The notes under the pieces were generated by a model. That model saw nothing but the letters and a program-made list of their open reading frames with translations. It did no database searches and was not told the origin of the DNA. A program made the position numbers and the translations under genes. DNA of 64,000 nt from positions 4,000,001-4,064,000 of the forward strand of contig CH464491.1 in the NCBI GenBank assembly GCA_000002445.1. Direction: 5' to 3'. Numbering within the stretch: the first letter of the stretch is position 1; every line of letters starts with the position of its first letter. Shown here one piece after another: positions 22,701 to 58,293 of this stretch. The stretch comes from Trypanosoma brucei (taxonomy: Eukaryota).

Positions 22701-23354
22701 GGCGGCGCAGCACATCCACAGAGGGACAAATATCGCAGCTAGCGGCTTCGCGGGAGCGGAGTCACCAACAACAACACCAACGGCACCGAATTACCACCTA
22801 CACACCCCTGGAAGAACGCCACTGGGCTCGTGGCGGGGACGGCGCCTAACCATCCTCTCGCCCACTGTTTCCATCACTTTTCTTCAGGGCCTCTCCCTCC
22901 CATTCTCATTTCTCTTGCCCTTAGGCGTCGGCGGCCCTTCGTTTGCGACCATTGTGGGATGCGCCTGTGTTTCCAAACCCCACATGGGGCTAAGCAAACG
23001 CGACGCAAGTGGGGGACGGGCGCGGCACTCGGCGGCACCGTTCCACTGCGGGGGGAGAGACCATGCAGACTTTCTCGAACCCGCATAAATCGTACGATCG
23101 GGCCCTTTACAAAACATTGTTCACGACGAGAACGTTCCAACCAGCAGCGGTTCAGTAAGTGCGACAACGTTTCCCCCCAGTCGTTGCGCTGGCTTATGCC
23201 TTCGAGTGTCGCATGGAAGTGCTGGCCCCCCTCTTATCAAGTGTACGGCTCATCCGATTGCACGCTGTAGCGCGCGCATTGAGCACACCGCCGCCGCGGC
23301 GCGCGTCTGACTAGCAAGTGAAGTCCACCGGCGCCAACTTAATGCACTAGAACC

Positions 23355-23434
23355 CCCTGGCGATGCCGGCCACCTCAACGTGGTGCCAGGGTCCAGTCTC
23401 CCGTATCATCGGGGGAAGCCAAGAGCCAGCAGCG
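23355..23434 (+). mobile_element. Pr77-like 5' signature (~79 nt) of trypanosomatid non-LTR retroposons (ingi/RIME/L1Tc/NARTc/DIRE family)
   Basis: Sequence 'CCCTGGCGATGCCGGCCACCTCAACGTGGTGCCAGGGTCCAGTCTCCCGTATCATCGGGGGAAGCCAAGAGCCAGCAGCG' closely matches, from memory, the conserved first ~79 residues shared by ingi, RIME, L1Tc, NARTc and DIRE elements. In L1Tc this region is reported to act as an internal promoter and an HDV-like ribozyme. Confidence 0.6.
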
Positions 23435-28500: not shown

Positions 28501-28778
28501 GAGACTCCCGATTCGCAACTTCCCGTTACGTTATGATGCCACGGCAACAACCGTAAGAAGGCCTCCTCCCGTACCGGCATCCGTTTAAGGTCCTCTGAAC
28601 GAGATCGCTTCTTAAGCCTAAAATAACGGTTGTTAAATTCATTTAGCAATCTTCCTAAGCTCACACTGTAAACGGTAATATTTGTCTTTAACGCCTTCAT
28701 ATATTCCCTCACCCGTCGTCTCCCCTTTATCTTCAGCTCACTCGTGGGATCAATTACTCCCTTAATGTGCTGTTCCAA
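28194..28778 (-). CDS. Orphan ORF (194 aa) inside the gene-poor / retroposon-relic interval; coding status doubtful
   Basis: Longest ORF in the 19.8-29.9 kb interval, same strand as the flanking genes. No recognisable motifs. Could be chance, or a fragment of degenerated element sequence. Confidence 0.2.
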   Translation of the reverse strand: MEQHIKGVIDPTSELKIKGRRRVREYMKALKTNITVYSVSLGRLLNEFNNRYFRLKKRSRSEDLKRMPVREEAFLRLLPWHHNVTGSCESGVSESDSDRVNGDLTRCRFLFGRCQMNVEYQFALSVGTRKDVASSKCTGEGSEGGAVLLRFTKIPNKSGGSSTVTCSIRVNKEVQYFNREEVVVAMKFCREIYA

Positions 28779-29970
28779 CCAATAGGAATGCTACTCAAAG
28801 AGAGTGATATTGGCTAATAGTTGCCTCTTTATCTGTGCCTTGCGATAGAAGACTTCGTAACCGAAAACCCCCGGATTGTTCATATCTATCTGTGTAGCCC
28901 ATCCTGTATTTTTTTCCGTTGCTCCACAACTGTAAAATATGTGTAACACGAAATAACAAGCATATACCCTTTTCATTCCAGGAATTATCTGCCTCTTCCG
29001 CTTGATTTCGGTGTTACACGTCCAAACCTACTTTGTCCCACCCACCCCCTACGCACACACTGAATAAGTAAATAACCTAATCAATTGACGTCAAGGCTTA
29101 AACCCCCCCTAAAACTGGCGAAGGCGCGAAACCAAGGGGAGAACGAGGTCACATATGTGTTGGGTGGAAAGTAATAACTGGCGCGGGAGCTGTTACATTA
29201 TTTGACATGCGTATGTTTGTTTGGTAGGGCACCGGAAAGAACTGCAGCCCCAGGGCCAAGAACTTTATCCGTGGAATTGGTGATAAGGGCATCCTGTTTG
29301 TTGAAGCATTGCTTTTCTAGCCGTTGCAACTCCCATCATAACCCGCACAAATTGCCCTAATATCCTGAATGTAATTCTACCTACCAAATATCGGAACGTT
29401 GGGGGTGCTTTCGCTAGGCGGGTGAGAAAAAATACTTCACACAATGTAGTAGCACCCGCATCAGATGAATGCTTGATCCTGCTTAATCTTTGCTGTGCGC
29501 ACCAAACATCCAAACTCCACTAGCATCGATATTCTTCCCGCGACAAACGAGGTTCACGTTGTCATCAGAGTCAAATAACTGTGGGAGAGGAAGCCGCCAC
29601 CGCAATCGGACCCATCATGCCGCGCAAATTCTACTCAATAAGAGGCATGTGAGGGGGCGGTGGCGACGTGACGGGTAAAAGTTACGACGAAAAGAGTGTT
29701 ATGTGTGTCTTTGAAAGTGTGGCGAGCGTTGAAGCGACAGCTCTTTAAGTTGTTCCCCAAGTTTGTTTGAGGGGACTGTCGGTGCGGGAATGAAAGCAGA
29801 CAGTTCACGCGGAGAATGGTAAAGACGAAAAGTTGTAATCTTCTTTTAGAAGCACTACACAAATGAAAGCTAACGTGTGCAGGTGGTGACGCATGCGCTT
29901 GGATACTCAGTTCTCCGGGAGACGACGCTTTGCGTACACGAGAATACGCAAGAGCCTGTGAGTGGAAGGG

Positions 29971-37977: not shown

Positions 37978-40902
37978 TCACATCTGGAACTCTGCGAGAA
38001 GTGGTGGTAATCCCTTGCGGAAGCGTGTTTTCAACGTGAAATCACGTGCTAGCTGGTACCCCCGCGCCGGTTGCAAGGGCCCAATGTGTACCGTTGTGTC
38101 AAACGGGTCCCCTGGAACTGTGTCCCAGCTGTCGAACGCGAAGAGTGGAAGTGCCTCGCCAAGCGTCACCACTCGCAGCTGTGTTTCCAGGCCGAAGCTG
38201 TCGATTGCCGGTACTAACGCCCGGACGCACACAAATGTAGTTGCTGCTATGGGTTCCTCCGATACAATACTCCCGCGACGCATTTGCAGTACCTCTGCAA
38301 TTTTTTCCACAGACCCTGGGGGGCACATAATGTCAACCTTTAGCACTGGCTCAAGAAGCTGCGGATGCGCACCGAGTAGCGCCTGTTTAGCTGCGGTTCT
38401 CGCACCAGCCATAATCGCCGCGTCTCTGGCATCAGGCTCCAGGTCTGCGAAAATGAGGCGCAGTGCCGCTCCGCGAACGACGTCGCCGATCAGCGGCCCC
38501 GCTGCCACTGCAGAGCGGAACCCAGCGGTAATGGCTTGCAACCGCTGCTCTGTGAGTCGTTCGAACTCCTCGTGCTCCTCGTCAAGCGTATCATTAATGA
38601 GCACACTCGGCCCTTTCGTTGTGTGTGGGCCTGTCGCTATTATGTTCCGCGCGTCAAGAGCGTCCATGTCGTGTTGCTGTAACGTCGTCCATAGCTTAAC
38701 AACACTGTCGGTACCGGGCGAAGGAAACAGATTGATTTGCTCATTTTCGATTTGTTCAGTCAGTTTGGTTGGGAGCGAGCCGGCCGTAAAACCAATATGT
38801 GCCCAGTTTGACGAAGTGACAGCTAAAGCACCATCCTTTTCTAACACAGTCTCCGAAAAGGAAACAAATGGCGGAGATATGCCAAGTTTCACCCCTTTGC
38901 ACAAGGCACACCGCAACTCGTGTAGAGCAGTGTCGAGGTGCAACTCCCCATAGCCACTAATGGTGAACTCCCCCGTTTCCTCTTTGTGCGCGTCTAGGCC
39001 AGGTGTTGTGCGAATCAATATTTGAAGACTTTGCTGTAACTGGTTTGCTTTTGCTGGATTTTTCAGTTCAACTCCAACATGCACAAATGGTTTTCCGCAC
39101 TTAAGGGGTAGTACTCTCACTTCATCGAGCCACGAAGCGCCAGACTCTCTGGCGGAGTCTATAGTGTTTTCCTCTTCCCATAACAAACTCGTGGCAGCGA
39201 CTCCGCCGACCATCACAAGGTGACTTCCTGCTCGTGTATCAAAGCCGGTGACGAGAACAACCTGGCCTGCGTACGCGCAATCCACATCGACAAATCCGTC
39301 CAACATTTTCAGCAACAACTCCTTTACCGTAAACGTATAAAAAGGCTCAGCATCACTGGAATGCTCATCCACCACAACCACCTTTACCCCACGTTTCAGT
39401 ACGCCGTGCAGTACACGAACAACGGCAAAGTTCTCCTCACCATTATTTTGAGATCGTATTATCGGTGCGATGGCTGCTGCTGAGTCTTCTTCCTCTACAT
39501 TCAGCCGGTACTGCGTCTTCAGCCACGCTGAGCGTTTGTCAGTTGCGGGCAATACGTTTAGAAGCGCATCAATACCCTCCAACGCGGGGTCACCGCAGAA
39601 AAGTTGCACTGCCTCGCGTACAGCACTGATGGGCCCTCGCGGCAGTGGATTAAGCTTATTGCTGAGTACCTGCGAGCCTTTTCCAGTAAGTGAATGAGCA
39701 ACAACCTTGTACAGAGGCTCAAGCACAAGTGTAACAAAGGAAGGTTTCTGGCGGAAGTTTGTAATGCGAACGAACCTTCCCTCCTCAAAAGTCACTTGCC
39801 CCCACAATTGCTGCGATAAAGCGATCGCATCCACGGATGGGTACTTGCTGCTGTACTTCAACGCAAACGTCTCCGTGGTGAAAAAACATCCGATGTTGGA
39901 GGAAGCGAAACAAACAGTGCCGTTCAGCGGCGACACCAAGAAGGGAGAGCATCCACTTCCAAAACTAGAAATTTCATTGTTTACCGCATCCACCACCATG
40001 CGCAACTTTCGATACGCATCGAGCGGAGGGAGCTTCAAATCCATTATAAGGCGATCAATTTTCGTTATAACAAGCACAATTGGTATTCCTTCCTGCAATA
40101 CAACCTGGCGCAGGAGCCGAGCGCCGTTACTTGTGAGCGACTCAGCGGCGTCAACGCAAAAAAGCACAGCGTCCGCTAGACGTAGCGCGGCTGCTGTTTC
40201 CGCCGCAAAATCGGGGTGACCGGGAGTGTCGACAAACGTCATTAGGTGTGAGGTCTGTTCATAATGTGCACCCGCGACAACCTCCGTCACGACGCTGCTC
40301 TTCACGGATATGCCTCGCTCAACCTCGTCCTCTCGCTGCCTGTAGGCACGACCGCCTAGAAGCAGTGACAAGAGTGAAGTTTTTCCGTGGTGCAAGTGCC
40401 CCGCAACCGCAACGATACGCTGTCGTGAAGGGACGCCTCGCAGGAGATCCAAGAAGTCCCGCGTCGACGGCTCTTTCGACACCACCTCCCCAATTAGAAG
40501 AGGATGTACCAGACGATCTTCCAACAAAAACTTTCCTCCGGCAGCATCCCTGCGATTTTTCATGGTTGATGATGCAACGTCACGACCAGCCACCAAAGGC
40601 TCATCGATTGACTGGTTGGCAACTTCTCCAATGACAAGCTCAACATCGTCGCCAAAGTCACCACTTGACCCACTCGTCGTGTCGTCGTCGTGCCTTCGCC
40701 GCTCGTGTTCTACAGAGTCGCTACCATCACTGCCTCTGTTACTTTCTGTACCGCTCCCGGCTGACCCTGAAGAATCGTTATCGTTGTCGTCGCTAGTAGA
40801 TCTCACTTCGTGGGTGCCGTCGTACTCCCTGCTGGTGCTGTCGCCACACCCACTTTGGTCACTGGGGACTCTGTTCCCCTCTTCATCATAACCAAAGTTC
40901 AT
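37978..40902 (-). CDS. EF-2/EF-G-family translational-type GTPase with acidic Ser/Asp-rich N-terminal extension (Snu114/U5-116K-like or EFL1-like)
   Basis: G1 'AGHLHHGKTSLLSLL', G3 'VDTPGHPDF', G4 'VITKIDRL', and EF-2-like domains II-V downstream. The acidic N-terminal region (SDDNDNDSSGSAGSG...DGSDS) resembles Snu114. The maximal ORF extends to 41301, but its first 133 codons are Cys/Trp/Phe-rich, non-protein-like, and overlap the upstream gene. I placed the start at the ATG at 40902 (MNFGYDEEG...). Confidence 0.75.
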   Translation of the reverse strand: MNFGYDEEGNRVPSDQSGCGDSTSREYDGTHEVRSTSDDNDNDSSGSAGSGTESNRGSDGSDSVEHERRRHDDDTTSGSSGDFGDDVELVIGEVANQSIDEPLVAGRDVASSTMKNRRDAAGGKFLLEDRLVHPLLIGEVVSKEPSTRDFLDLLRGVPSRQRIVAVAGHLHHGKTSLLSLLLGGRAYRQREDEVERGISVKSSVVTEVVAGAHYEQTSHLMTFVDTPGHPDFAAETAAALRLADAVLFCVDAAESLTSNGARLLRQVVLQEGIPIVLVITKIDRLIMDLKLPPLDAYRKLRMVVDAVNNEISSFGSGCSPFLVSPLNGTVCFASSNIGCFFTTETFALKYSSKYPSVDAIALSQQLWGQVTFEEGRFVRITNFRQKPSFVTLVLEPLYKVVAHSLTGKGSQVLSNKLNPLPRGPISAVREAVQLFCGDPALEGIDALLNVLPATDKRSAWLKTQYRLNVEEEDSAAAIAPIIRSQNNGEENFAVVRVLHGVLKRGVKVVVVDEHSSDAEPFYTFTVKELLLKMLDGFVDVDCAYAGQVVLVTGFDTRAGSHLVMVGGVAATSLLWEEENTIDSARESGASWLDEVRVLPLKCGKPFVHVGVELKNPAKANQLQQSLQILIRTTPGLDAHKEETGEFTISGYGELHLDTALHELRCALCKGVKLGISPPFVSFSETVLEKDGALAVTSSNWAHIGFTAGSLPTKLTEQIENEQINLFPSPGTDSVVKLWTTLQQHDMDALDARNIIATGPHTTKGPSVLINDTLDEEHEEFERLTEQRLQAITAGFRSAVAAGPLIGDVVRGAALRLIFADLEPDARDAAIMAGARTAAKQALLGAHPQLLEPVLKVDIMCPPGSVEKIAEVLQMRRGSIVSEEPIAATTFVCVRALVPAIDSFGLETQLRVVTLGEALPLFAFDSWDTVPGDPFDTTVHIGPLQPARGYQLARDFTLKTRFRKGLPPLLAEFQM

Positions 40903-41290
40903 ATTAGAATCAGACGCGCACTCCGGTCGGAAGAGCAATTCCCAACCGACAGTGGGACCGTTATTGTTACTCTTTTTCTTCCACTGGCGGCAGAAACATA
41001 GCAGGCGGGTAGAAACAAGATTGGGGGAGACACAAGAGCAGAATGTATGCGAGGGGAAAACTCCATGGTGAAGGTTCCACGTGCCAGAATTTGCATGCAC
41101 CACGGGCGCAGGATGAAGAGTAGCGGTTAACTCAGTGCCCGCACAGAGGGAAGAAATTTTTGCACCGACACACCCATCCCAACGCCATTCATTAATGACA
41201 AAGAACAAGCCCAGGACTCGCCCCCTGCTAGCAAGCGTGCAACTTAGTGCACCGCAGGGAAAAGGGTCGATAAAAAAGGGAGAACCCCTT

Positions 41291-41911
41291 TCAACCCTCA
41301 TTAGAAACTATGCCATAGGGATTACGCAGGGATGGCGGTTCCAGCCTCACGCCTGGAGCATCGTGGAACGTGGCGAGAACACGGTGCTCCAGCGACAACC
41401 GGTGTTGCTGTCGTTCGAGCCCAGTGCGAATCTGCCTTTCACGTATTTGCCGCAGCTCCTCTGGGGAATTCGCCTCCAAACGCATAGCCATCGCACCCAC
41501 CATTTCGCTTATGTCTGGGTGACGCACCTCAATGGGTTTTGCATTCATCGCTACCACCGCTATGAGCATAAAGCCCAACATGAGAAAAGCAGCAATGAAG
41601 TTTTGTGATTCTGGGGTGAAATTGTACTCCGTGCGGCGTACTTCCCAGTCAAGACACGAGACGAGGCCCAAACGGTTGATGTATAACGTACGCGAGAGCC
41701 GCTCGTCCTCCAAAACCTGCAGGTCTTTGTGGGCCTGATTGATGAGCTCACGCTGTGCCGACGGGCTTGTGATGCCGCGGTTCCTTCTAAAACCCGAGCG
41801 GATTTGCTGCAGGAGCAGCATCCGGATGGTCACATTTGGGATGCTGTTGGCTGCCTTCAGGTAGCGGCGGTAGAGGAGCGCTACCGCCTCCCTTGGAAGA
41901 AGGGCTGACAT
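41291..41911 (-). CDS. LYR-motif (Complex1_LYR-like) protein with one central TM segment (206 aa)
   Basis: N-terminal 'ALLYRRYLKAANSIPN...' (L-Y-R tripeptide plus downstream basic/aromatic residues, as in LYRM proteins). Hydrophobic segment 'FIAAFLMLGFMLIAVVAM'. Confidence 0.55.
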   Translation of the reverse strand: MSALLPREAVALLYRRYLKAANSIPNVTIRMLLLQQIRSGFRRNRGITSPSAQRELINQAHKDLQVLEDERLSRTLYINRLGLVSCLDWEVRRTEYNFTPESQNFIAAFLMLGFMLIAVVAMNAKPIEVRHPDISEMVGAMAMRLEANSPEELRQIRERQIRTGLERQQHRLSLEHRVLATFHDAPGVRLEPPSLRNPYGIVSNEG

Positions 41912-42413: not shown

Positions 42414-45400
42414 TTATCCTATGAATTTAAGTCTCAACTCGCGCCGTTGCTTCTTCTTGAACGGCCCTTGCCGTCCTTCCGCAGCAGCTTCTACAGTGGT
42501 ACCTTCTTCAACGGGGCCAAATTTAGCCCCGCAACCGCTGGGTGTCACGCCAAATGGATTAGTATAGCCATCAAACTTTTCGTCGCTGCGACCATTCACT
42601 GTTGCGTTATCGCGGGACTTAATCGGTGTGGAAACATCTTCCCCATCTCTACTGGATAATAAAAACGGTAGCTGCGGTAAAGTTGCAGCGTCCAACGTAA
42701 CTGGAGGCCTGACTTCTTGCTGTTTACGATATTTACTAAGAAGTACCGAAGAAGCAATGCCAGCCCCACCATCTACTGAACAGGATGAGCTCAATGGAGT
42801 ATCAGCAGTGGCTGTAAGCTTCTGACCGATACCACAAAGCGTCTTCCTTGAGTCGTTCACAAGGAGGAAACACGCCTCAAAAATGGGAGCGTCACAAACG
42901 TTAAGGGGTAACGACCTCAGCAAGCAGTACTGAAGTTTCTGCAAAGCTACAGTTAACTTTGCAACAGTGAAACCCGTCAGTTTCCCCCAAGCATCGAAGC
43001 GTTGGGAATACCACGAGCAAAGAGACGCCACTACCAAGATATTGTGGCGTAGCGCTTCAACGACCTCAACCAGCCGCCTGCTCTCTTCATCCCATACAGC
43101 TGTAAATGAAATCGCTCTTTGAAGTCCAACACCAACAACATCGCAAAGAGCCTTCAAGGGTCCAAAGGAAAACGGCAACTCGGGCGCAGAGCATTTAGAT
43201 TTCGACGTCACGGGAGAATAAAATTTATCATCAACAGATAATTTCGCACCTGGAACAATACCTAACTTTTTTGTAACATTCTGGATAAACAACATACGCT
43301 GCTGAGAAAGCACAACAGCATCCGATACGTCAAATTCAAACGAACGCAACTTGTCAAGCACGTTACGAACACCAACACGCAGTTGCTTCGCAACAGAACC
43401 ACGACGAAAAGACGACACAGCAGGGCAACCAACCAAAGAGAAAACGCCACGATCAGAACAAGAAAACTGACTAAAAACAGTATTCACCAACTGTTCTTCA
43501 TCCGAACAAAAGGATATTTTCATATCATCCACAAATAAACGACGAGACATATCAACAACATCAACATCAACTTCGCAACAGTACTGTTCCTTCCCTATAT
43601 CCACCAAACGCGTTACGCACATTTCAGACGCCTGTACACGTTCACGCTCATTTTGTAATTCAGTACGAAGTGATTCCACCTCATGGGTGTATCGAACACG
43701 CTGTTCCTCCATAGCTATCTCAAGAGTTGAAAGTTGTTCCCGATGCAATTTCTCCATACCTTCATGGTTCTCTTGTACAACTTTCTCAGACGCCTGTACA
43801 CGTTCACGCTCATTTTGTAATTCAGTACGAAGTGATTCCACCTCATGGGTGTATCGAACACGCTGTTCCTCCATAGCTATCTCAAGAGTTAAAAGTTGTT
43901 CCCGATGCAATTTCTCCATACCTTCATGGTTCTCTTGTACAACTTTCTCAGACGCCTGTACACGTTCACGCTCATTTTGTAATTCAGTACGAAGTGATTC
44001 CACCTCATGGGTGTATCGAACACGCTGTTCCTCCATAGCTATTTCAAGAGCTAAAAGTTGTTCCCGATGCAATTTCTCCATACCTTCATGGTTCTCTTGT
44101 GCAACTTTCTCAGACGCCTGTACACGTTCACGCTCATTTTGTAATTCAGTACGAAGTGATTCCACCTCATGGGTGTATCGAACACGCTGTTCCTCCATAG
44201 CTATTTCAAGAGTTGAAAGTTGTTCCCGATGCAATTTCTCCATACCTTCATGGTTCTCTTGTGCAACTTTCTCAGACGCCTGTACACGTTCACGCTCATT
44301 TTGTAATTCAGTACGAAGTGATTCCACCTCATGGGTGTATCGAACACGCTGTTCCTCCATAGCTATTTCAAGAGTTGAAAGTTGTTCCCGATGCAATTTC
44401 TCCATACCTTCATGGTTCTCTTGTGCAACTTTCTCAGACGCCTGTACACGTTCACGCTCATTTTGTAATTCAGTACGAAGTGATTCCACCTCATGGGTGT
44501 ATCGAACACGCTGTTCCTCCATAGCTATTTCAAGAGCTAAAAGTTGTTCCCGATGCAATTTCTCCATACCTTCATGGTTCTCTTGTGCAACTTTCTCAGA
44601 CGCCTGTACACGTTCACGCTCATTTTGTAATTCAGTACGAAGTGATTCCACCTCATGGGTGTATCGAACACGCTGTTCCTCCATAGCTATTTCAAGAGCT
44701 AAAAGTTGTTCCCGATGCAATTTCTCCATACCTTCATGGTTCTCTTGTGCAACTTTCTCAGACGCCTGTACACGTTCACGCTCATTTTGTAATTCAGTAC
44801 GAAGTGATTCCACCTCATGGGTGTATCGAACACGCTGTTCCTCCATAGCTATTTCAAGAGTTGAAAGTTGTTCCCGATGCAATTTCTCCATACCTTCATG
44901 GTTCTCTTGTGCAACTTTCTCAGACGCCTGTACACGTTCACGCTCATTTTGTAATTCAGTACGAAGTGATTCCACCTCATGGGTGTATCGAACACGCTGT
45001 TCCTCCATGGCTATTTCAAGAGCTAAAAGTTGTTCCCGATGCAATTTCTCCATACCTTCATGGTTCTCTTGTGCAACTTTCTCAGACGCCTGTACACGTT
45101 CACGCTCATTTTGTAATTCAGTACGAAGTGATTCCACCTCATGGGTGTATCGAACACGCTGTTCCTCCATAGCTATTTCAAGAGTTGAAAGTTGTTCCCG
45201 ATGCAATTTCTCCATACCTTCATGGTTCTCTTGTGCAACTTTCTCAGACGCCTGTACACGTTCACGCTCATTTTGTAATTCAGTACGAAGTGATTCCACC
45301 TCATGGGTGTATCGAACACGCTGTTCCTCCATAGCTATTTCAAGAGCTAAAAGTTGTTCCCGATGCAATTTCTCCATACCTTCATGGTTCTCTTGTGCAA

Positions 45401-48400
45401 CTTTCTCAGACGCCTGTACACGTTCACGCTCATTTTGTAATTCAGTACGAAGTGATTCCACCTCATGGGTGTATCGAACACGCTGTTCCTCCATAGCTAT
45501 TTCAAGAGCTAAAAGTTGTTCCCGATGCAATTTCTCCATACCTTCATGGTTCTCTTGTGCAACTTTCTCAGACGCCTGTACACGTTCACGCTCATTTTGT
45601 AATTCAGTACGAAGTGATTCCACCTCATGGGTGTATCGAACACGCTGTTCCTCCATAGCTATTTCAAGAGCTAAAAGTTGTTCCCGATGCAATTTCTCCA
45701 TACCTTCATGGTTCTCTTGTGCAACTTTCTCAGACGCCTGTACACGTTCACGCTCATTTTGTAATTCAGTACGAAGTGATTCCACCTCATGGGTGTATCG
45801 AACACGCTGTTCCTCCATAGCTATTTCAAGAGTTGAAAGTTGTTCCCGATGCAATTTCTCCATACCTTCATGGTTCTCTTGTGCAACTTTCTCAGACGCC
45901 TGTACACGTTCACGCTCATTTTGTAATTCAGTACGAAGTGATTCCACCTCATGGGTGTATCGAACACGCTGTTCCTCCATAGCTATTTCAAGAGCTAAAA
46001 GTTGTTCCCGATGCAATTTCTCCATACCTTCATGGTTCTCTTGTGCAACTTTCTCAGACGCCTGTACACGTTCACGCTCATTTTGTAATTCAGTACGAAG
46101 TGATTCCACCTCATGGGTGTATCGAACACGCTGTTCCTCCATAGCTATTTCAAGAGTTGAAAGTTGTTCCCGATGCAATTTCTCCATACCTTCATGGTTC
46201 TCTTGTGCAACTTTCTCAGACGCCTGTACACGTTCACGCTCATTTTGTAATTCAGTACGAAGTGATTCCACCTCATGGGTGTATCGAACACGCTGTTCCT
46301 CCATAGCTATTTCAAGAGCTAAAAGTTGTTCCCGATGCAATTTCTCCATACCTTCATGGTTCTCTTGTGCAACTTTCTCAGACGCCTGTACACGTTCACG
46401 CTCATTTTGTAATTCAGTACGAAGTGATTCCACCTCATGGGTGTATCGAACACGCTGTTCCTCCATAGCTATTTCAAGAGTTGAAAGTTGTTCCCGATGC
46501 AATTTCTCCATACCTTCATGGTTCTCTTGTGCAACTTTCTCAGACGCCTGTACACGTTCACGCTCATTTTGTAATTCAGTACGAAGTGATTCCACCTCAT
46601 GGGTGTATCGAACACGCTGTTCCTCCATAGCTATTTCAAGAGCTAAAAGTTGTTCCCGATGCAATTTCTCCATACCTTCATGGTTCTCTTGTGCAACTTT
46701 CTCAGACGCCTGTACACGTTCACGCTCATTTTGTAATTCAGTACGAAGTGATTCCACCTCATGGGTGTATCGAACACGCTGTTCCTCCATAGCTATTTCA
46801 AGAGCTAAAAGTTGTTCCCGATGCAATTTCTCCATACCTTCATGGTTCTCTTGTACAACTTTCTCAGACGCCTGTACACGTTCACGCTCATTTTGTAATT
46901 CAGTACGAAGTGATTCCACCTCATGGGTGTATCGAACACGCTGTTCCTCCATAGCTATTTCAAGAGCTAAAAGTTGTTCCCGATGCAATTTCTCCATACC
47001 TTCATGGTTCTCTTGTGCAACTTTCTCAGACGCCTGTACACGTTCACGCTCATTTTGTAATTCAGTACGAAGTGATTCCACCTCATGGGTGTATCGAACA
47101 CGCTGTTCCTCCATAGCTATTTCAAGAGCTAAAAGTTGTTCCCGATGCAATTTCTCCATACCTTCATGGTTCTCTTGTGCAACTTTCTCAGACGCCTGTA
47201 CACGTTCACGCTCATTTTGTAATTCAGTACGAAGTGATTCCACCTCATGGGTGTATCGAACACGCTGTTCCTCCATAGCTATTTCAAGAGCTAAAAGTTG
47301 TTCCCGATGCAATTTCTCCATACCTTCATGGTTCTCTTGTGCAACTTTCTCAGACGCCTGTACACGTTCACGCTCATTTTGTAATTCAGTACGAAGTGAT
47401 TCCACCTCATGGGTGTATCGAACACGCTGTTCCTCCATAGCTATTTCAAGAGCTAAAAGTTGTTCCCGATGCAATTTCTCCATACCTTCATGGTTCTCTT
47501 GTGCAACTTTCTCAGACGCCTGTACACGTTCACGCTCATTTTGTAATTCAGTACGAAGTGATTCCACCTCATGGGTGTATCGAACACGCTGTTCCTCCAT
47601 AGCTATTTCAAGAGCTAAAAGTTGTTCCCGATGCAATTTCTCCATACCTTCATGGTTCTCTTGTGCAACTTTCTCAGACGCCTGTACACGTTCACGCTCA
47701 TTTTGTAATTCAGTACGAAGTGATTCCACCTCATGGGTGTATCGAACACGCTGTTCCTCCATAGCTATTTCAAGAGTTGAAAGTTGTTCCCGATGCAATT
47801 TCTCCATACCTTCATGGTTCTCTTGTGCAACTTTCTCAGACGCCTGTACACGTTCACGCTCATTTTGTAATTCAGTACGAAGTGATTCCACCTCATGGGT
47901 GTATCGAACACGCTGTTCCTCCATAGCTATTTCAAGAGCTAAAAGTTGTTCCCGATGCAATTTCTCCATACCTTCATGGTTCTCTTGTGCAACTTTCTCA
48001 GACGCCTGTACACGTTCACGCTCATTTTGTAATTCAGTACGAAGTGATTCCACCTCATGGGTGTATCGAACACGCTGTTCCTCCATAGCTATTTCAAGAG
48101 CTAAAAGTTGTTCCCGATGCAATTTCTCCATACCTTCATGGTTCTCTTGTGCAACTTTCTCAGACGCCTGTACACGTTCACGCTCATTTTGTAATTCAGT
48201 ACGAAGTGATTCCACCTCATGGGTGTATCGAACACGCTGTTCCTCCATAGCTATTTCAAGAGTTGAAAGTTTTTCTTTATATTTTTTTTGTTCATTTTGT
48301 TTTTTCGTATTTAAGTTTTCAATGTGTTTATGGTGTTGCTGCTCTTTTGCCTTAATGATGTTTGAAAGTTCCTGTTCCCTTTCGCACTGTGCCGCTAATG

Positions 48401-49295
48401 TTAGTTTCATTGCTATTATTTGTTCTTGGTGGCTTGTTTGAATATCTGCGAGAGTTAGAGTGCCTTGTTTGACTTCTGCGGCTTCCGTATTTTGTATCAT
48501 GTCTCTTAGTGTTTGATGCAGTATCTTTATGTTTTCTCGTAAAGCTGCCTGTTCTTCTTTGTCTATATTATTTTCTTTTATTTTTATTTCTCGTAAACGT
48601 CGTTCGTACTCTTCTTTGGTTTTTGTCATTTCTATTTCCTTTTCTTGTAGTGTGAGTTGAGATTGTTGTAGCTGTGTTGTGGATCGTTGAAGTTTCCTTT
48701 CATGTTCGTGTAGTGCTGCCTTTAATGCACTATTTTCCTGTTGTATTCTTTCGTGTTCATTTTGCAGGATTGCCGTTAGTTGTGAATTTTCTTCATAGTT
48801 TTGAAGCTTTTGTCGGACGCTTTCTAGTTCCTTTACCGTGCTATCGCGCTCACACTTCGTTTTGTGGAATTCTTCTCGCAAGTGTTCAAGGTTAACATCT
48901 GTGTCTTTATAAGTAGTAAAACCCTGCTGCATTGTGTGCGGAGAAAGCGTGTGATCCATTGCGTCTGTCTCGCTAGGTGCTGAGCTGCCAGCGGTGCTCT
49001 CTGGAGCAAGTCCCTCTCGGCGCTTGTAATAATAAATTATGGTACGCCACAGCTTAGCGATGCGGTTTGCCGTTGCAGCTGCTTTGGGTGAGCCGTTAGG
49101 TAACGAAAGGTACGCTGTCAGTGATGTCAGCGCCATGTAAATATCGGCCATGGCTTCTGGTAAGTCATGCGCAGCGCTGCTTGTGAGTTTGTACTGTGCA
49201 TCCCTAAGCGAATTTCCAATTCGCGCTTCTATAGTCCTTCGACTGCCTTCGATATCGCTCGTGTTTTCTATTAACTGAGCGTCCTTGAAACTCAT
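42414..49295 (-). CDS. Giant repetitive protein (2293 aa): K/E-rich coiled-coil N-terminus, ~28.7 tandem 54-aa repeats, ~400-aa non-repetitive C-terminal domain
   Basis: Uninterrupted 6.9-kb ORF. Central array of 162-bp units encodes 'LEIAMEEQRVRYTHEVESLRTELQNERERVQASEKV(A/V)QENHEGMEKLHREQL(LA/ST)'. Units are >99% identical, with only 3-4 variable nucleotide positions. Confidence 0.85.
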   Translation of the reverse strand: MSFKDAQLIENTSDIEGSRRTIEARIGNSLRDAQYKLTSSAAHDLPEAMADIYMALTSLTAYLSLPNGSPKAAATANRIAKLWRTIIYYYKRREGLAPESTAGSSAPSETDAMDHTLSPHTMQQGFTTYKDTDVNLEHLREEFHKTKCERDSTVKELESVRQKLQNYEENSQLTAILQNEHERIQQENSALKAALHEHERKLQRSTTQLQQSQLTLQEKEIEMTKTKEEYERRLREIKIKENNIDKEEQAALRENIKILHQTLRDMIQNTEAAEVKQGTLTLADIQTSHQEQIIAMKLTLAAQCEREQELSNIIKAKEQQHHKHIENLNTKKQNEQKKYKEKLSTLEIAMEEQRVRYTHEVESLRTELQNERERVQASEKVAQENHEGMEKLHREQLLALEIAMEEQRVRYTHEVESLRTELQNERERVQASEKVAQENHEGMEKLHREQLLALEIAMEEQRVRYTHEVESLRTELQNERERVQASEKVAQENHEGMEKLHREQLSTLEIAMEEQRVRYTHEVESLRTELQNERERVQASEKVAQENHEGMEKLHREQLLALEIAMEEQRVRYTHEVESLRTELQNERERVQASEKVAQENHEGMEKLHREQLLALEIAMEEQRVRYTHEVESLRTELQNERERVQASEKVAQENHEGMEKLHREQLLALEIAMEEQRVRYTHEVESLRTELQNERERVQASEKVAQENHEGMEKLHREQLLALEIAMEEQRVRYTHEVESLRTELQNERERVQASEKVAQENHEGMEKLHREQLLALEIAMEEQRVRYTHEVESLRTELQNERERVQASEKVVQENHEGMEKLHREQLLALEIAMEEQRVRYTHEVESLRTELQNERERVQASEKVAQENHEGMEKLHREQLLALEIAMEEQRVRYTHEVESLRTELQNERERVQASEKVAQENHEGMEKLHREQLSTLEIAMEEQRVRYTHEVESLRTELQNERERVQASEKVAQENHEGMEKLHREQLLALEIAMEEQRVRYTHEVESLRTELQNERERVQASEKVAQENHEGMEKLHREQLSTLEIAMEEQRVRYTHEVESLRTELQNERERVQASEKVAQENHEGMEKLHREQLLALEIAMEEQRVRYTHEVESLRTELQNERERVQASEKVAQENHEGMEKLHREQLSTLEIAMEEQRVRYTHEVESLRTELQNERERVQASEKVAQENHEGMEKLHREQLLALEIAMEEQRVRYTHEVESLRTELQNERERVQASEKVAQENHEGMEKLHREQLLALEIAMEEQRVRYTHEVESLRTELQNERERVQASEKVAQENHEGMEKLHREQLLALEIAMEEQRVRYTHEVESLRTELQNERERVQASEKVAQENHEGMEKLHREQLSTLEIAMEEQRVRYTHEVESLRTELQNERERVQASEKVAQENHEGMEKLHREQLLALEIAMEEQRVRYTHEVESLRTELQNERERVQASEKVAQENHEGMEKLHREQLSTLEIAMEEQRVRYTHEVESLRTELQNERERVQASEKVAQENHEGMEKLHREQLLALEIAMEEQRVRYTHEVESLRTELQNERERVQASEKVAQENHEGMEKLHREQLLALEIAMEEQRVRYTHEVESLRTELQNERERVQASEKVAQENHEGMEKLHREQLSTLEIAMEEQRVRYTHEVESLRTELQNERERVQASEKVAQENHEGMEKLHREQLSTLEIAMEEQRVRYTHEVESLRTELQNERERVQASEKVAQENHEGMEKLHREQLLALEIAMEEQRVRYTHEVESLRTELQNERERVQASEKVVQENHEGMEKLHREQLLTLEIAMEEQRVRYTHEVESLRTELQNERERVQASEKVVQENHEGMEKLHREQLSTLEIAMEEQRVRYTHEVESLRTELQNERERVQASEMCVTRLVDIGKEQYCCEVDVDVVDMSRRLFVDDMKISFCSDEEQLVNTVFSQFSCSDRGVFSLVGCPAVSSFRRGSVAKQLRVGVRNVLDKLRSFEFDVSDAVVLSQQRMLFIQNVTKKLGIVPGAKLSVDDKFYSPVTSKSKCSAPELPFSFGPLKALCDVVGVGLQRAISFTAVWDEESRRLVEVVEALRHNILVVASLCSWYSQRFDAWGKLTGFTVAKLTVALQKLQYCLLRSLPLNVCDAPIFEACFLLVNDSRKTLCGIGQKLTATADTPLSSSCSVDGGAGIASSVLLSKYRKQQEVRPPVTLDAATLPQLPFLLSSRDGEDVSTPIKSRDNATVNGRSDEKFDGYTNPFGVTPSGCGAKFGPVEEGTTVEAAAEGRQGPFKKKQRRELRLKFIG
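43627..48270 (-). repeat. Coding tandem repeat: 162-bp unit x ~28.7 copies (54-aa protein repeat), two interspersed variant classes
   Basis: The unit beginning 'gacgcctgtacacgttcacgctcattttgtaattcagtacgaagtgattccacctcatggg...' recurs with exact 162-bp spacing from 43627 to 48163; the last copy is partial. Variants: 'agttgaaag' vs 'agctaaaag'; 'tgtgcaac' vs 'tgtacaac'; 'ctatctc' vs 'ctatttc'. Confidence 0.95.
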
Positions 49296-50112
49296 TTTCC
49301 TTTTTCTGTTTGACGGCGACGATAAGTGTAGGGGGAGGTGGCACCTTGGAGGAACCGCCGCTACGACGCTCTCCTGTCTGCTTCCCCTTCTCGGAGAAAA
49401 GAAAAACGATTACCCAGCTAAGGTGTCCGATACTATTGAGAAAAGTGGTGCAGGGTGAGTTTAAGAAGTCACTTTAAACAACAAACTGTATTGATAACAA
49501 CAACACAAATAAACTAGGATGGTGTCGCACTGGAGGTTAGTCACCGTCACTAATGTGCCAAATACAAATGCCGTAGCAGTCTACTACACTTATTAATGCT
49601 CGTTTCGTTAAGCGTGCCAAATCCATGCGATAACCCCCACCACCTCGCCGAAACAGCCCCTCAATGACCGTTATCCGCCGCTTGAAGCACCGTGGGAGAG
49701 CTCGAACAACCCTCTTCTTCGTTGCTGCTGCCTTGACGACATTCACCAGGGCGACTCTGCATCTCCTTTTGTGCGCCCAACAGAACTTGAGTAAAAGGAC
49801 TCAAGTGACTAATTACTGTGCATGTTTTTCCGGGCCCTGGCGTAGCCGCTTCTGAGGTTTGCAGTTGAGGTGGACATAATCCAAGGCGACACGCCTCCTC
49901 CTCCTTCCCACGACAATCAGAAAAGGGACTGGAAGGGGATGAAACACGTGCCCATCGTGGGGGAGAGGGTGACGACTCAAAAATACCTGCAGCGACCTCC
50001 TTAGGTCACTTAACGCAGAGATATGTGGGAGTCAGGCGACATTTCCAGCGACACCGAATAACGTCTAAATTAGCATGGTGTCTTTAATACGAAAAATGTT
50101 TACGCCCGACTG

Positions 50113-56136: not shown

Positions 56137-58293
56137 CTACCAGTCATCCCACTCCTCCCCCTCATCATCAACTAGTATATCTGCCTTGGCTTTCACAATG
56201 CGTGATTTACCAACAACAGAGCCCGCATCCTGCCTATCAGAAGGAGCAGCTACACTCTCCAAGCGAGCAACAATACTAGGATTTTCGGAGTGGTCACTCT
56301 CGTCTTCATCAACGAAACTAACTGAGGTAGAAACTATATACTTTTGGTAGACAGTAAGATATTCATCTGCTTGCTTCCGGCAAACGATGCTCCTACAAAC
56401 TCCTTCCTCATGCTCAAGAACCGCAAAAAGCTTAGAAAAATGGGGTGAGTGCCCACAGCATGCTTCCTCCTCAGCTCTGAGACGTGCTTCCTCTTCAGCT
56501 CTGAGACGTGCTTCCTCCTCAGCTCTCAGACGTGCTTCCTCCTCAGCTCTGAGACGTGCTTCCTCTTCAGCTCTCAGACGTGCTTCCTCTTCAGCTCTCA
56601 GACGTGCTTCCTCTTCAGCTCTCAGACGTGCTTCCTCTTCAGCTCTCAGACGTGCTTCCTCTTCAGCTCTCAGACGTGCTTCCTCTTCAGCTCTCAGACG
56701 TGCTTCCTCTTCAGCTCTGAGACGTGCTTCCTCCTCAGCTCTGAGACGTGCTTCCTCTTCAGCTCTCAGACGTGCTTCCTCTTCAGCTCTCAGACGTGCT
56801 TCCTCCTCAGCTCTGAGACGTGCTTCCTCTTCAGCTCTGAGACGTGCTTCCTCTTCAGCTCTGAGACGTGCTTCCTCTTCAGCTCTCAGACGTGCTTCCT
56901 CTTCAGCTCTCAGACGTGCTTCCTCTTCAGCTCTGAGACGTGCTTCCTCTTCAGCTCTCAGACGTGCTTCCTCCTCAGCTCTGAGACGTGCTTCCTCTTC
57001 AGCTCTGAGACGTGCTTCCTCTTCAGCTCTCAGACGTGCTTCCTCTTCAGCTCTGAGACGTGCTTCCTCTTCAGCTCTGAGACGTGCTTCCTCCTCAGCT
57101 CTCAGACGTGCTTCCTCTTCAGCTCTCAGACGTGCTTCCTCTTCAGCTCTCAGACGTGCTTCCTCTTCAGCTCTCAGACGTGCTTCCTCTTCAGCTCTCA
57201 GACGTGCTTCCTCTTCAGCTCTGAGACGTGCTTCCTCCTCAGCTCTGAGACGTGCTTCCTCTTCAGCTCTCAGACGTGCTTCCTCTTCAGCTCTCAGACG
57301 TGCTTCCTCTTCAGCTCTCAGGTGTGTCTCTTCCTCGGAGTTATCTGACGTCTTGCAAATCCTAATAAGATGCTCTTTACCATCGTGTTGTCTCATTTTC
57401 CCTTTCTTAGCAGGTGTGTCACTTTCGTTAATTCGAGGATGGAGTTTGCCGCTGCTGGTGCTTATTTTATTTGTGCATTCATTTTGTACGTATTCTCCTG
57501 TGTGAACTCTGCTTTCCTGTGTGCATTGAGCGTGTAGCAAGCTACTGTTTTTGTTTCCTGTGGGTTGAGCCTCTGATCCTATAATGCGATGCTTCGCGGT
57601 CTTATCGTTATTCTGGTCGTGCTGATGTGCGAACTCGCTAGGGATGTCGTTGCCCACTTGGTTAATAAGGTCGTACTTTTCCTCTCTCAACAGCGTTCCA
57701 ATCTTTTTTACAGTTCCCATATCCGCTGTACATGTTTCCCAAATGCTGTTTATGCGCTGTTGAAGATGAACGATGTTCTCTACATTTATCAACCCAGGTT
57801 GCACTTTGTACTCCTCGAAGATCAATTCACACTTGCGGAGACGCTGATCCACGGCATCTTCCCACCAGGTGTAGACGCTGAGAAAGTCACTTGTATGCGT
57901 TATTTTTTCCTCTAGGCTTAATTGAAGGAGGAACTGCGCCTCTCCGTGGATACGTTTGGAAGTGAGAGTTATAAGACTGACAGACTCCGTAATGTATCGA
58001 AACAATTCTTCTGGTTCCAGAGATGTACGCTTTTCTTCCGCAAGACATAAAAGTGGTGGCGGTTTTTCATATTCGCCAGCCAGTTCGGCACTGCCAGCGC
58101 CAGAGTCGAGTACAACAGGGGATGATGTGAGTTTGTTCATCCAACCGACGACGTGCTCCTCGAGGAGGGAAAACCCCGAGCTCATTGCTGCACTTCGTTG
58201 CTGTTTCTGTTCAGGTGCAGCGGCGAGCTCGTCTCGCGTTGGGGCAACCGTGCGCCGAGCCGCGTTCTTTATGTCTATTAAAAAGTTCCACAT
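56137..58293 (-). CDS. Repetitive charged protein (718 aa) with ~36 tandem 8-aa 'EEARLRAE' repeats (predicted ER/K single alpha-helix) flanked by unique N- and C-terminal domains
   Basis: Uninterrupted ORF. Central 24-bp-periodic array encodes (EEARLRAE)n with only synonymous unit variants. Flanking domains are non-repetitive. Confidence 0.8.
56461..57324 (-). repeat. Coding tandem repeat: 24-bp unit 'tgcttcctc(t/c)tcagctct(c/g)agacg' x ~36 (8-aa EEARLRAE)
   Basis: Exact 24-bp periodicity visible over ~860 bp. Only two synonymous polymorphic positions per unit. Confidence 0.95.

What the first reader, a model, noticed from the sequence alone, without database searches (positions are those of the whole stretch)
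42414..49295. Giant protein with ~29 near-identical 54-aa (162-bp) tandem repeats
Seen directly: a 6.9-kb ORF contains a 4.65-kb array of 162-bp units with exact periodicity (43627 + 162n, n=0..28). Only 3-4 nucleotide positions vary across all copies, so two or three variant unit types are interspersed. The repeat is E/R/Q/K-rich ('LEIAMEEQRVRYTHEVESLRTELQNERERVQASEKVAQENHEGMEKLHREQLLA') and predicted helical, i.e. coiled-coil or single alpha-helix. Identity this high implies ongoing concerted evolution (gene conversion or unequal crossover). It is the hallmark of trypanosomatid cytoskeleton/flagellum-associated repetitive antigens. Examples of the class, by analogy rather than identity, are T. 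brucei MARP/GM6, T. cruzi FRA/CRA and Leishmania K39. Such genes are often immunodominant and have collapsed copy number in assemblies. The non-repetitive C-terminal ~400 aa (42414-43600) carries the probable localisation domain.
Basis: partly seen in the sequence, partly recalled or inferred. Interest (0 to 1): 0.75.

Follow-up and report, generated by a model that had tools for sequence, protein, structure and literature searches.

The report
Known basal-body protein TbBBP270, repeat-rich
The giant repeat gene is real, but it is already catalogued as the Trypanosoma brucei basal-body protein TbBBP270; its 54-residue helical repeats are kept almost identical within each species while they diverge between species, and what the protein does has never been tested.

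Summary
ORF 42414-49295 (-) encodes 2293 aa (269.6 kDa). It has 28 complete 162-bp units plus one truncated unit, in exact register. Only 5 nucleotide positions vary.

The window is T. brucei chromosome 11. The gene is Tb927.11.15450, published as TbBBP270 (Dang et al. 2017). That paper lists 269.6 kDa and '31 x CC', found the protein by TbCEP57 BioID, and placed the tagged protein at the distal ends of the pro-basal and mature basal bodies. TrypTag-derived data show more signal at the new-flagellum basal body.

Syntenic orthologues in T. cruzi and T. rangeli also carry 54-aa repeats. These are near-identical within a species but only about 40% identical to the T. brucei unit. The T. b. gambiense assembly has 14.6 units, dominated by a different variant. 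This is concerted evolution with rapid turnover.

AlphaFold predicts four repeats as one unbroken helix, which would make the array a rod of about 230 nm if it stays extended. The two termini match no Pfam family or solved structure.

The 'cytoskeletal repeat protein' reading holds. The 'immunodominant antigen' reading is untested. No homology to any named antigen family was detected (Pfam and PDB sequence searches only). Function is uncharacterised; I infer a length-setting helical spacer or tether, like p197. Low novelty, modest interest.

The parts
42414..49295 (-). Complete coding sequence of Tb927.11.15450 / TbBBP270 (2293 aa, 269.65 kDa, pI 5.3; stop codon at 42414-42416)
   Evidence: ORF list and translation. 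The computed mass of 269.65 kDa equals the 269.6 kDa listed for TbBBP270 in Table S1 of PMC5210500. The gene order matches the published IDs of the neighbours.
49011..49295 (-). Conserved N-terminal region (about aa 1-95), with invariant motifs RIGxS..AQ and YLxLPNGxPKAAAxxxRIAK
   Evidence: Three-sequence alignment of T. brucei, T. cruzi and the UniParc fragment P0004: 47-62% identity with 33 invariant columns. No Pfam or PDB match.
48261..48905 (-). Non-repetitive helical / coiled-coil region (about aa 131-345) leading into the array. Its last part (HQEQIIAMKLTLAAQ) resembles a unit junction (HREQLLALEIAMEEQ).
   Evidence: It aligns along its length with the T. cruzi orthologue. The strongest hydrophobic periodicity is at 3.5 residues. 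The AlphaFold model of aa 292-561 is helical throughout.
43725..48260 (-). 28 complete 162-bp (54-aa) tandem units, consensus LEIAMEEQRVRYTHEVESLRTELQNERERVQASEKVAQENHEGMEKLHREQLLA
   Evidence: Only 5 nucleotide positions vary. Four units are predicted as one uninterrupted alpha-helix with mean pLDDT 87.9.
43623..43724 (-). Truncated 29th unit (first 34 aa of the unit). The array ends at about the same place within the unit (around residue 31-34) in T. cruzi and T. rangeli.
42417..43622 (-). Unique C-terminal region (402 aa, pI 8.6); the fold is unknown
   Evidence: It is 99% identical to T. equiperdum TEOVI_000498000. An exhaustive HMMER search found only Trypanosoma relatives. The AlphaFold model was unusable, with pLDDT 32.8. 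No Pfam or PDB match.
42786..43343 (-). Conserved core of the C-terminal region (C-terminal-region residues 94-279), including the motif AKxxVALxKxQxCLLxSxxLxxxDAxIxEACxLLxND
   Evidence: phmmer match to the T. cruzi protein P0003 (E = 8.3e-06) and to the T. rangeli protein P0002 (E = 6.4e-07); alignment A2.
49390..49408 (-). Polypyrimidine tract followed by AG, about 95 nt upstream of the ATG; a candidate trans-splice acceptor (inferred only)
   Evidence: Read directly from the sequence. No transcript data were available.

Best explanation
Identity: the feature is the T. brucei chromosome-11 gene Tb927.11.15450. Its product has been published as TbBBP270, a trypanosome-specific basal-body protein.

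Architecture: the protein has three parts. (1) A 345-aa N-terminal region with a conserved ~95-aa head and a non-repetitive helical stretch. (2) A 1546-aa central domain of 28.6 nearly identical 54-aa helical units. (3) A 402-aa C-terminal region with a ~190-aa conserved core.

Evolution: the array was already present in the common ancestor of T. brucei, T. cruzi and T. rangeli. All three share the 54-aa period, and where the locus could be read (T. brucei, T. cruzi) it sits at the same syntenic position. Since then it has been homogenised separately in each lineage by in-register unequal crossover or gene conversion. Copy number and the dominant variant differ even between T. brucei subspecies assemblies.

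Mechanism (inferred, about 35% confidence): the repeat domain forms a long helical rod, probably a coiled coil, up to about 230 nm if fully extended. It would act as a length-setting spacer or tether between partners bound by the two conserved termini at the distal end of the basal and pro-basal bodies, and preferentially on the newly built flagellum's basal body. This would parallel p197 in the tripartite attachment complex.

What is shown: localisation and proximity to TbCEP57 (by others), and architecture and evolution (here). What is inferred: the spacer function.

The confidence of 0.85 refers to identity, architecture and evolutionary mode.
For: Identity:
- The neighbours match published IDs in order. 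The CS-domain ORF is Tb927.11.15480. The formyltransferase is Tb927.11.15470. The LYR protein is Tb927.11.15440. That leaves 15460 for the DEAD-box gene and 15450 for the repeat gene.
- Table S1 of Dang et al. [quoted passage not shown] My computed mass is 269.65 kDa.

Localisation:
- In the TrypTag analysis the signal is stronger at the posterior, new-flagellum kinetoplast. The N-terminal tag gives log2(anterior/posterior) = -1.37, p = 3e-13, n = 64. The C-terminal tag gives -0.42, p = 0.0013, n = 61.

Architecture:
-.
- AlphaFold models the flank plus four units as a single helix over residues 2-269, mean pLDDT 87.9.

Evolution:
- The T. cruzi orthologue is syntenic (formyltransferase, DEAD, X, LYR, U5-116K). 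It has 17 full and 2 partial 54-aa units that differ at 3 or fewer of 162 nt from each other, yet are only 22/54 aa and 85/162 nt identical to the T. brucei unit.
- The T. rangeli unit is also 54 aa: 36/54 identical to T. cruzi and 21/54 to T. brucei.
- The T. b. gambiense DAL972 assembly has 14.6 units. Twelve of its 14 full units carry the LST-type ending, and a private M->I variant is present, whereas LLA-type units dominate in the window (17 of 28).

Precedent for a spacer role:
- p197 has about 26 near-identical 175-aa helical repeats. Its termini anchor at the basal body and the mitochondrial outer membrane, and its length sets the distance between them (PMC9546609).
Against: - No functional data exist for TbBBP270. 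Dang et al. did not include it in their RNAi set, and I found no follow-up paper.
- 3D-SIM shows one compact focus per basal body. That does not obviously fit a 230-nm extended rod, unless the rod lies within or across the structure or only one terminus was tagged.
- The test for a continuous hydrophobic seam was not significant for the T. brucei unit: 10 of 15 seam positions hydrophobic, matched by 131 of 200 shuffles. A canonical coiled coil is therefore not demonstrated.
- Between the window and T. b. gambiense the unique termini show pN/pS of about 0.9-1.0, against 0.14-0.36 in neighbouring genes. Counts are small. This hints at weak constraint on the supposed anchoring domains.
- Conservation of the 54-aa period follows automatically from in-register recombination, so it is not in itself evidence of selection on length.
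Confidence: 0.85

Rival explanations
1. One reading: the gene belongs to the class of immunodominant repetitive cytoskeletal antigens (like MARP, GM6, FRA, CRA, K39), and the biologically relevant property of the array is that it is a multivalent B-cell epitope.
For: It has near-identical charged tandem repeats in an intracellular cytoskeletal protein, which is the general architecture of those antigens. Tandem-repeat proteins of trypanosomes are used in serodiagnosis (titles and abstracts returned).
Against: None of ten literature searches turned up a report of serological reactivity for Tb927.11.15450 / TbBBP270, although the tandem-repeat antigen papers listed were not opened. No domain is shared with K39 (kinesin) or GM6 (calpain-like), and no Pfam family reaches threshold. 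A basal-body protein is present at only two to four small foci per cell, so it is likely to be of low abundance. The array is conserved across Trypanosoma, including T. rangeli, which fits a structural role better than a host-directed one.
Confidence: 0.12
2. The array is real, but the copy number in this window (28.6) is an assembly product and differs from the true number in the strain. It could be collapsed or mis-joined, as happened for p197.
For: Runs of up to five identical units (810 bp) occur in the array. Short-read assemblies of T. equiperdum and T. rangeli break inside the array. DAL972 has only 14.6 units. The p197 reference model held 3.5 repeats, against about 26 in a long-read assembly. 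The window's protein has exactly the mass quoted from the reference annotation in 2017, which suggests the window comes from the older, Sanger-based reference.
Against: The window contains no N. The interspersed variant units are aperiodic, which gives an assembler some anchors. The T. cruzi long-read assembly shows an array of the same order of size, 18-19 units. No read data were available, so this cannot be settled here.
Confidence: 0.3
3. The repeat domain is a stable single alpha-helix (SAH) rather than a coiled coil. It would then be a monomeric, spring-like spacer.
For: AlphaFold models a monomeric unbroken helix. The hydrophobic seam is not better than in shuffled sequence for T. brucei. 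The unit is rich in E, R, Q and K.
Against: Only 39% of residues are charged, with a net charge of -5 per unit and about 6 opposite-charge i/i+4 pairs per 54 aa. From my own knowledge this is far below typical SAH domains. LIVMFYW residues make up 26% of the unit. Positions L1, V16, L19 and L23 are identical hydrophobic residues in all three species, and position 5 is always hydrophobic (M or L). Dang et al. list 31 predicted coiled-coil segments.
Confidence: 0.2
4. The coding strand is the plus strand: the 1584-aa ORF 43687..48441 is the real gene.
For: A long open frame exists on the plus strand.
Against: That ORF lies wholly inside the array, starts with GTG, and exists only because the unit has no stop codon in that frame. 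The ORFs with Pfam domains or orthologue support all lie on the minus strand. Minus-strand orthologues with conserved unique termini exist in three other taxa.
Confidence: 0.01

Closest known systems
TbBBP270 (Tb927.11.15450), Dang et al. 2017, mBio 8:e02120-16 (PMC5210500)
   Same: It is the same gene. The chromosomal position inferred from neighbour IDs agrees, the predicted mass is identical (269.6 kDa), and the '31 x CC' annotation fits 29 repeat units plus the N-terminal coils.
   Different: Nothing differs. The main text and Table S1 of that paper, which is all I read, do not describe the 54-aa repeat structure, its evolution or any function.
p197 (Tb927.10.15750), exclusion-zone filament protein of the tripartite attachment complex (PMC9546609)
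   Same: It is a basal-body-associated giant T. brucei protein with unique termini flanking about 26 near-identical alpha-helical repeats. Its copy number is mis-assembled in the reference. It acts as a monomolecular spacer whose length sets a distance.
   Different: Its unit is 175 aa, not 54. p197 orthologues in other kinetoplastids lack repeats, whereas the BBP270 repeats are conserved in T. cruzi and T. rangeli. p197 sits at the proximal base of the basal body, whereas BBP270 is at the distal end. Homology was not tested directly; no shared domain was found.
Trypanosomatid repetitive antigens: MARP-1/2 (38-aa repeats; MARP2 = TbBBP268, Tb927.10.10280), GM6/FRA (68-aa repeats, calpain-like), CRA, Leishmania K39 (kinesin)
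   Same: They are tandem, near-identical, charged repeats in cytoskeleton-associated proteins. MARP2 was even recovered in the same basal-body BioID study.
   Different: The period and sequence differ. BBP270 has no kinesin or calpain domain, and its antigenicity is untested. The repeat lengths and domain contents of these antigens are from my own knowledge, not from a tool.
Spacer coiled-coil proteins such as yeast Spc110 (cited in PMC9546609) and the trypanosome lamina protein NUP-1 with near-identical long repeats (own knowledge)
   Same: They are long helical rods whose length defines a cellular dimension. NUP-1 likewise has highly homogenised repeats.
   Different: There is no sequence relationship, they occupy different compartments, and no length-function data exist for BBP270.

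Membership tests
TbBBP270 / Tb927.11.15450 orthologue group | Chromosomal position between the DEAD-box helicase (15460) and the LYR protein (15440), downstream of the formyltransferase (15470) and the CS-domain protein (15480) | tested here: met
   Pfam domains of the neighbours matched to published gene IDs. The same order is seen in T. cruzi and T. b. gambiense.
TbBBP270 / Tb927.11.15450 orthologue group | Predicted mass of 269.6 kDa with about 31 coiled-coil segments | tested here: met
   Computed mass 269.65 kDa against Table S1. There are 29 repeat units plus the N-terminal helical region.
TbBBP270 / Tb927.11.15450 orthologue group | Basal-body localisation of the protein | not testable with these tools
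   Taken from the literature: 3xHA tagging and 3D-SIM, and TrypTag mNeonGreen tags at either terminus.
Trypanosomatid immunodominant repetitive antigens (MARP, GM6/FRA, CRA, K39) | Long array of near-identical tandem amino-acid repeats | tested here: met
Trypanosomatid immunodominant repetitive antigens (MARP, GM6/FRA, CRA, K39) | Sequence or domain homology to a named member (kinesin motor for K39, calpain-like domain for GM6/FRA, 38-aa MARP unit) | tested here: not met
   No Pfam family reaches threshold in the N terminus, the repeat or the C terminus, even with the E-value limit raised to 10. The 54-aa period differs from all of these.
Trypanosomatid immunodominant repetitive antigens (MARP, GM6/FRA, CRA, K39) | Recognition by sera of infected hosts | not testable with these tools
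   No report found.
p197-like monomolecular helical spacer | Unique termini flanking a long alpha-helical domain of near-identical repeats | tested here: met
p197-like monomolecular helical spacer | The two termini occupy spatially separate structures, and the distance scales with repeat-domain length | not testable with these tools
   This needs expansion microscopy of doubly tagged and shortened variants, as was done for p197.
Canonical coiled coil | A hydrophobic a/d seam with periodicity of about 3.5 residues, better than chance | tested here: inconclusive
   Power in the repeat splits between the 3.38 and 3.6 harmonics, and also 2.84. The best 3/4-step seam is 10/15 hydrophobic in T. brucei (131 of 200 shuffles reach that) and 12/15 in T. 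cruzi and T. rangeli (11 and 13 of 200 shuffles).
Single alpha-helix (SAH) domain | Very high, balanced E/K/R content with a dense network of i/i+4 salt bridges | tested here: not met
   39% of residues are charged, net charge -5 per unit, 6 i/i+4 opposite-charge pairs per 54 aa. The thresholds for SAH domains are from my own knowledge.

The most novel reading that the evidence does not exclude
The BBP270 array may be a true molecular ruler for a distal basal-body or transition-zone dimension. Repeat number (14.6 in the gambiense assembly, 28.6 here, about 18 in T. cruzi) would then tune a measurable architectural distance, with the protein loaded preferentially during construction of the new flagellum. 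The repeats are conserved as repeats across Trypanosoma, unlike those of p197. Natural copy-number variation would therefore offer a ready allelic series for testing how a helical repeat protein sets organelle geometry.
Probability: 0.15. Interest if true: 0.55.

Novelty: already known. Interest (0 to 1): 0.25.

Why it matters
The gene is already annotated, named (TbBBP270) and localised, so finding it is not a discovery.

What this analysis adds is modest:
- An exact description of the array.
- Evidence that the 54-aa period and the point in the unit where the array ends are ancestral to T. brucei, T. cruzi and T. rangeli, while the unit sequence has been homogenised separately in each lineage.
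- Evidence that T. brucei subspecies assemblies differ two-fold in copy number and in their dominant variant.

This makes the locus a clean textbook case of concerted evolution inside a coding region. It is also a candidate second example, after p197, of a repeat-built helical spacer at the trypanosome basal body. If the spacer idea were confirmed, natural copy-number variants could be used to probe how basal-body and transition-zone dimensions are set.

There is also a practical point: copy number at this locus in any short-read or Sanger assembly should not be trusted.

Tried and rejected
1. Homologue searches in the 5.8-billion-protein word-indexed database gave almost nothing. The C terminus found only the T. 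equiperdum fragment. The N terminus found only one UniParc fragment. A profile of the N-terminal head found nothing. That index evidently covers trypanosomatid proteins poorly, so these negatives say nothing about Leishmania.

2. The exhaustive HMMER search with the C terminus found only Trypanosoma proteins. I had a single job of this kind, so the N terminus was not searched exhaustively. Presence or absence outside Trypanosoma stays open.

3. The AlphaFold model of the C-terminal region, built on a 4-sequence alignment, had pLDDT 32.8 and pTM 0.21. It is unusable, so I ran no fold search.

4. PDB sequence searches with the N terminus and with the C-terminal profile gave only noise, with E of 0.12 or higher.

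5. Pfam at E up to 10 gave only sub-threshold coiled-coil noise for the repeat and nothing for the termini.

6. I guessed from the mass that the protein was 'BBP268'. That was wrong: BBP268 is MARP2, Tb927.10.10280.

7. My guesses at old-style IDs (Tb11.01.7080-7120) and at T. cruzi CL Brener contig IDs gave nothing relevant.

8. The held supplements of the TrypTag main paper, the cell-cycle RNAi screen and the transition-fibre preprint do not contain the ID.

9. I tested the idea that 54 aa = 15 turns of 3.6 residues gives an in-phase hydrophobic seam across units. The seam is no better than shuffles in T. brucei, so I drop it as evidence.

10. The exact-sequence look-up of the full 2293-aa protein found no record, so the source assembly could not be named directly.

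11. An Rfam scan of the whole window gave no hits.

12. The plus-strand ORF 43687-48441 is rejected as an artefact of the repeat unit lacking a stop codon in that frame.
Full report
**1. Observation**

Tandem Repeats Finder reports a single array at 43624-48275: period 162 bp, 28.7 copies, 99% matches, no indels, score 9108. It lies inside a 6882-bp minus-strand ORF (42414-49295; 2293 aa; ATG start).

Cutting the coding strand every 54 codons from residue 346 gives 28 complete units (window 43725-48260). A 29th unit follows the consensus for 34 residues and then runs into unique sequence (43623-43724).

Among the 28 full units only five nucleotide positions vary. Two changes are silent. Three change the protein: A->V in 'EKVAQ', and L->S and A->T in the terminal 'QLLA/QLST'. 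There are seven distinct DNA unit types, with counts 17, 7 and five singletons (one being the truncated terminal unit). The full units run in the aperiodic order AABAAAAACABABABAAABADAABBAEF.

The unique N terminus is 345 aa and the unique C terminus is 402 aa.

**2. Organism and locus**

The ORFs in the window that have Pfam domains or orthologue support all lie on the minus strand. The neighbours are eukaryotic housekeeping genes:
- a U5 snRNP 116-kDa-type GTPase
- an LYR protein
- a DEAD-box helicase with an SPB4-type C-terminal extension
- a formyltransferase
- a CS-domain protein
- an eIF3K/CSN8-family protein

The C-terminal region is 99% identical to T. equiperdum TEOVI_000498000. 11.2 kb of that contig aligns to the window at 99.55% identity. 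The window is therefore T. brucei sensu lato.

Published IDs fix the position:
- the formyltransferase homologue is Tb927.11.15470 (PMC7314023)
- the CS/ACD-like protein is Tb927.11.15480 (PMC6197667)
- the LYR protein found with complex I is Tb927.11.15440 (PMC8312217)

Two genes lie between 15470 and 15440 in the window: the helicase, then the repeat gene. The repeat gene is thus Tb927.11.15450.

**3. It is a known protein**

Table S1 of Dang et al. [quoted passage not shown] The mass I computed from the window ORF, before finding that table, was 269.65 kDa. The match confirms the identity. It also implies that the window carries the same repeat number as the reference gene model used in 2017.

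By 3D-SIM, TbBBP270 forms one focus on each of the mature and pro-basal bodies. [quoted passage not shown] The authors did not include it in their RNAi set. I found no later paper that uses the name.

A 2026 preprint on programmatic access to TrypTag uses Tb927.11.15450 as its example of a protein specific to the new basal body. Its Table S1 covers 2K2N cells and compares the anterior with the posterior kinetoplast region:

| Tag | Anterior mean | Posterior mean | log2(ant/post) | p | n |
|---|---|---|---|---|---|
| N-terminal | 2796 | 7653 | -1.37 | 3e-13 | 64 |
| C-terminal | 4024 | 6143 | -0.42 | 0.0013 | 61 |

. In procyclic cells the posterior kinetoplast belongs to the new flagellum, as the preprint's figure legend and Results text state. 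One sentence in its text has the two labels swapped.

**4. Relatives and evolution**

The exhaustive HMMER search with the C terminus found only three proteins: the T. equiperdum fragment, T. rangeli P0002 and T. cruzi P0003 (PWV05998.1, 1744 aa).

*T. cruzi.* The gene sits in the same order: formyltransferase, DEAD, X, LYR, U5-116K, eIF3K. Its N-terminal head aligns with the T. brucei head (RIGxS..AQ; YLxLPNGxPKAAAxxxRIAK). It has its own array of 17 complete and two partial 54-aa units. These differ from one another at 3 or fewer of 162 nt. The unit consensus is only 22/54 aa and 85/162 nt identical to the T. brucei unit, and aligns to it without gaps.

*T. rangeli.* The contig ends inside the array. 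The readable unit is again exactly 54 aa: 36/54 identical to T. cruzi and 21/54 to T. brucei.

In all three species the array stops at about the same place within the unit, around residue 31-34. The array, its period and its 3' boundary are therefore ancestral, while the unit sequence has been homogenised independently in each lineage. That is concerted evolution.

*T. b. gambiense.* Turnover is still going on. The DAL972 chromosome-11 assembly encodes a 1537-aa orthologue with 14.6 units. Twelve of its 14 full units have the 'LST' ending and four units carry a private M->I change. In the window 17 of 28 units are the 'LLA' type.

Some of that two-fold difference could be assembly collapse. 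Three short-read or draft contigs break at the array: T. equiperdum, T. rangeli and a Logan contig. The p197 reference model was collapsed from about 26 repeats to 3.5.

Between the window and DAL972 the unique termini differ at 7 and 10 residues, giving pN/pS of about 0.9-1.0. The neighbouring genes give 0.14-0.36. Counts are small, so this is only a hint of weak constraint.

**5. Structure**

AlphaFold2 on residues 292-561 (one flanking segment plus four units, single sequence) gives one uninterrupted helix over residues 2-269. Mean pLDDT is 87.9, with 162 residues at 90 or higher and no break at the conserved glycine. At 0.1485 nm per residue the 1546-aa array would be about 230 nm long, or about 260 nm with the N-terminal helical stretch.

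Composition favours a coiled coil over a single alpha-helix: 39% charged residues, net charge -5 per unit, 26% LIVMFYW, and few i/i+4 salt bridges. Dang et al. also list 31 coiled-coil segments.

My own periodicity and seam tests were inconclusive, so the oligomeric state is not established.

The N-terminal head and the C-terminal region match no Pfam family and no PDB sequence. The C-terminal model failed, with pLDDT 32.8.

**6. Mechanism**

Shown by others: the protein is at the basal body, lies close to TbCEP57, and is enriched on the new-flagellum side.

Shown here: the tripartite architecture, a helical repeat domain, conserved termini, and concerted evolution with copy-number change.

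Inferred: the repeat domain is a rod-like spacer or tether, and the conserved head and C-terminal core bind different partners at the distal end of the basal or pro-basal body. The analogy is p197, where a single molecule with about 26 near-identical helical repeats bridges about 270 nm and its length sets the distance (PMC9546609). I put this at roughly one in three.

Two points argue against it. The SIM signal is a compact single focus, and the termini appear weakly constrained within T. brucei.

**7. Comparison and novelty**

The antigen aspect is untested, and there is no homology to MARP, GM6/FRA, CRA or K39.

The feature itself is already known and named. What may be new is the description of the conserved 54-aa period, the lineage-specific homogenisation and the subspecies difference. 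This is a tidy but unsurprising example of a well-known phenomenon.

Interest is low to modest (0.25). The most novel reading still open is a natural 'ruler' whose repeat number tunes basal-body or transition-zone geometry. I give that about 0.15 probability.

Noticed in passing
window 56137-58293 (-), array 56461-57321: There is a second repeat gene two genes upstream. It is a 718-aa ORF with a 24-bp x 35.9 tandem array (96% matches) that encodes about 36 copies of the 8-aa unit LRAEEEAR. By position it would be Tb927.11.15490 (inferred). Its Pfam hits DUF2345 and Cornifin look like low-complexity artefacts.
   Followed up: partly
L002 10001-15235 (T. cruzi TCC, PRFC01000121.1): The T. cruzi array shows a higher-order repeat. 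The pattern of single-nucleotide variants in units 0-7 (66C, none, 114A, 66C, none, 91G, 114A, none) recurs exactly in units 8-15. This implies a recent duplication of an 8-unit (1296-bp) block. The T. brucei array shows no such pattern.
   Followed up: partly
L004 4885-9498 (T. b. gambiense DAL972, FN554974.1): The gambiense orthologue is 1537 aa with 14.6 units, exactly 14 units fewer than the window. It is dominated by the LST-type unit and carries a private M->I variant in four units. I could not tell whether this is real polymorphism or assembly collapse.
   Followed up: partly
window 42417-43622 and 48261-49295 versus L004: Between the window and T. b. gambiense the unique termini of BBP270 show pN/pS of about 0.93 (7 nonsynonymous, 2 synonymous) and 1.04 (10 nonsynonymous, 3 synonymous). 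The neighbouring DEAD-box and U5-116K genes give about 0.36 and 0.14. Counts are small.
   Followed up: partly
window 43687-48441 (+): A 1584-aa antisense ORF lies entirely within the array. It exists only because the 162-bp unit has no stop codon in that frame, and it is not a gene.
   Followed up: yes
window 17281-29970: This 12.7-kb stretch has no ORF of 200 aa or more, only 19 short ORFs of 90-194 aa on both strands. One has a marginal Dpy-30 motif hit. There are no Rfam matches and no internal repeats of 40 bp or more. The region is unexplained; it could hold several small genes and long UTRs.
   Followed up: partly
window 37978-41301 (-) versus 41291-41911 (-): The mechanical ORF for the U5-116K-like GTPase (1107 aa) overlaps the end of the LYR ORF. 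It is 133 aa longer than the 974-aa product called in T. equiperdum and T. b. gambiense, so the true start is probably an internal ATG.
   Followed up: no
bioRxiv 10.64898/2026.02.17.706163, section 'Asymmetry of dividing cells': One sentence labels anterior as new and posterior as old. The figure legend, another passage of the text and Table S1 imply the opposite (posterior = new flagellum). I followed the legend and the table.
   Followed up: yes
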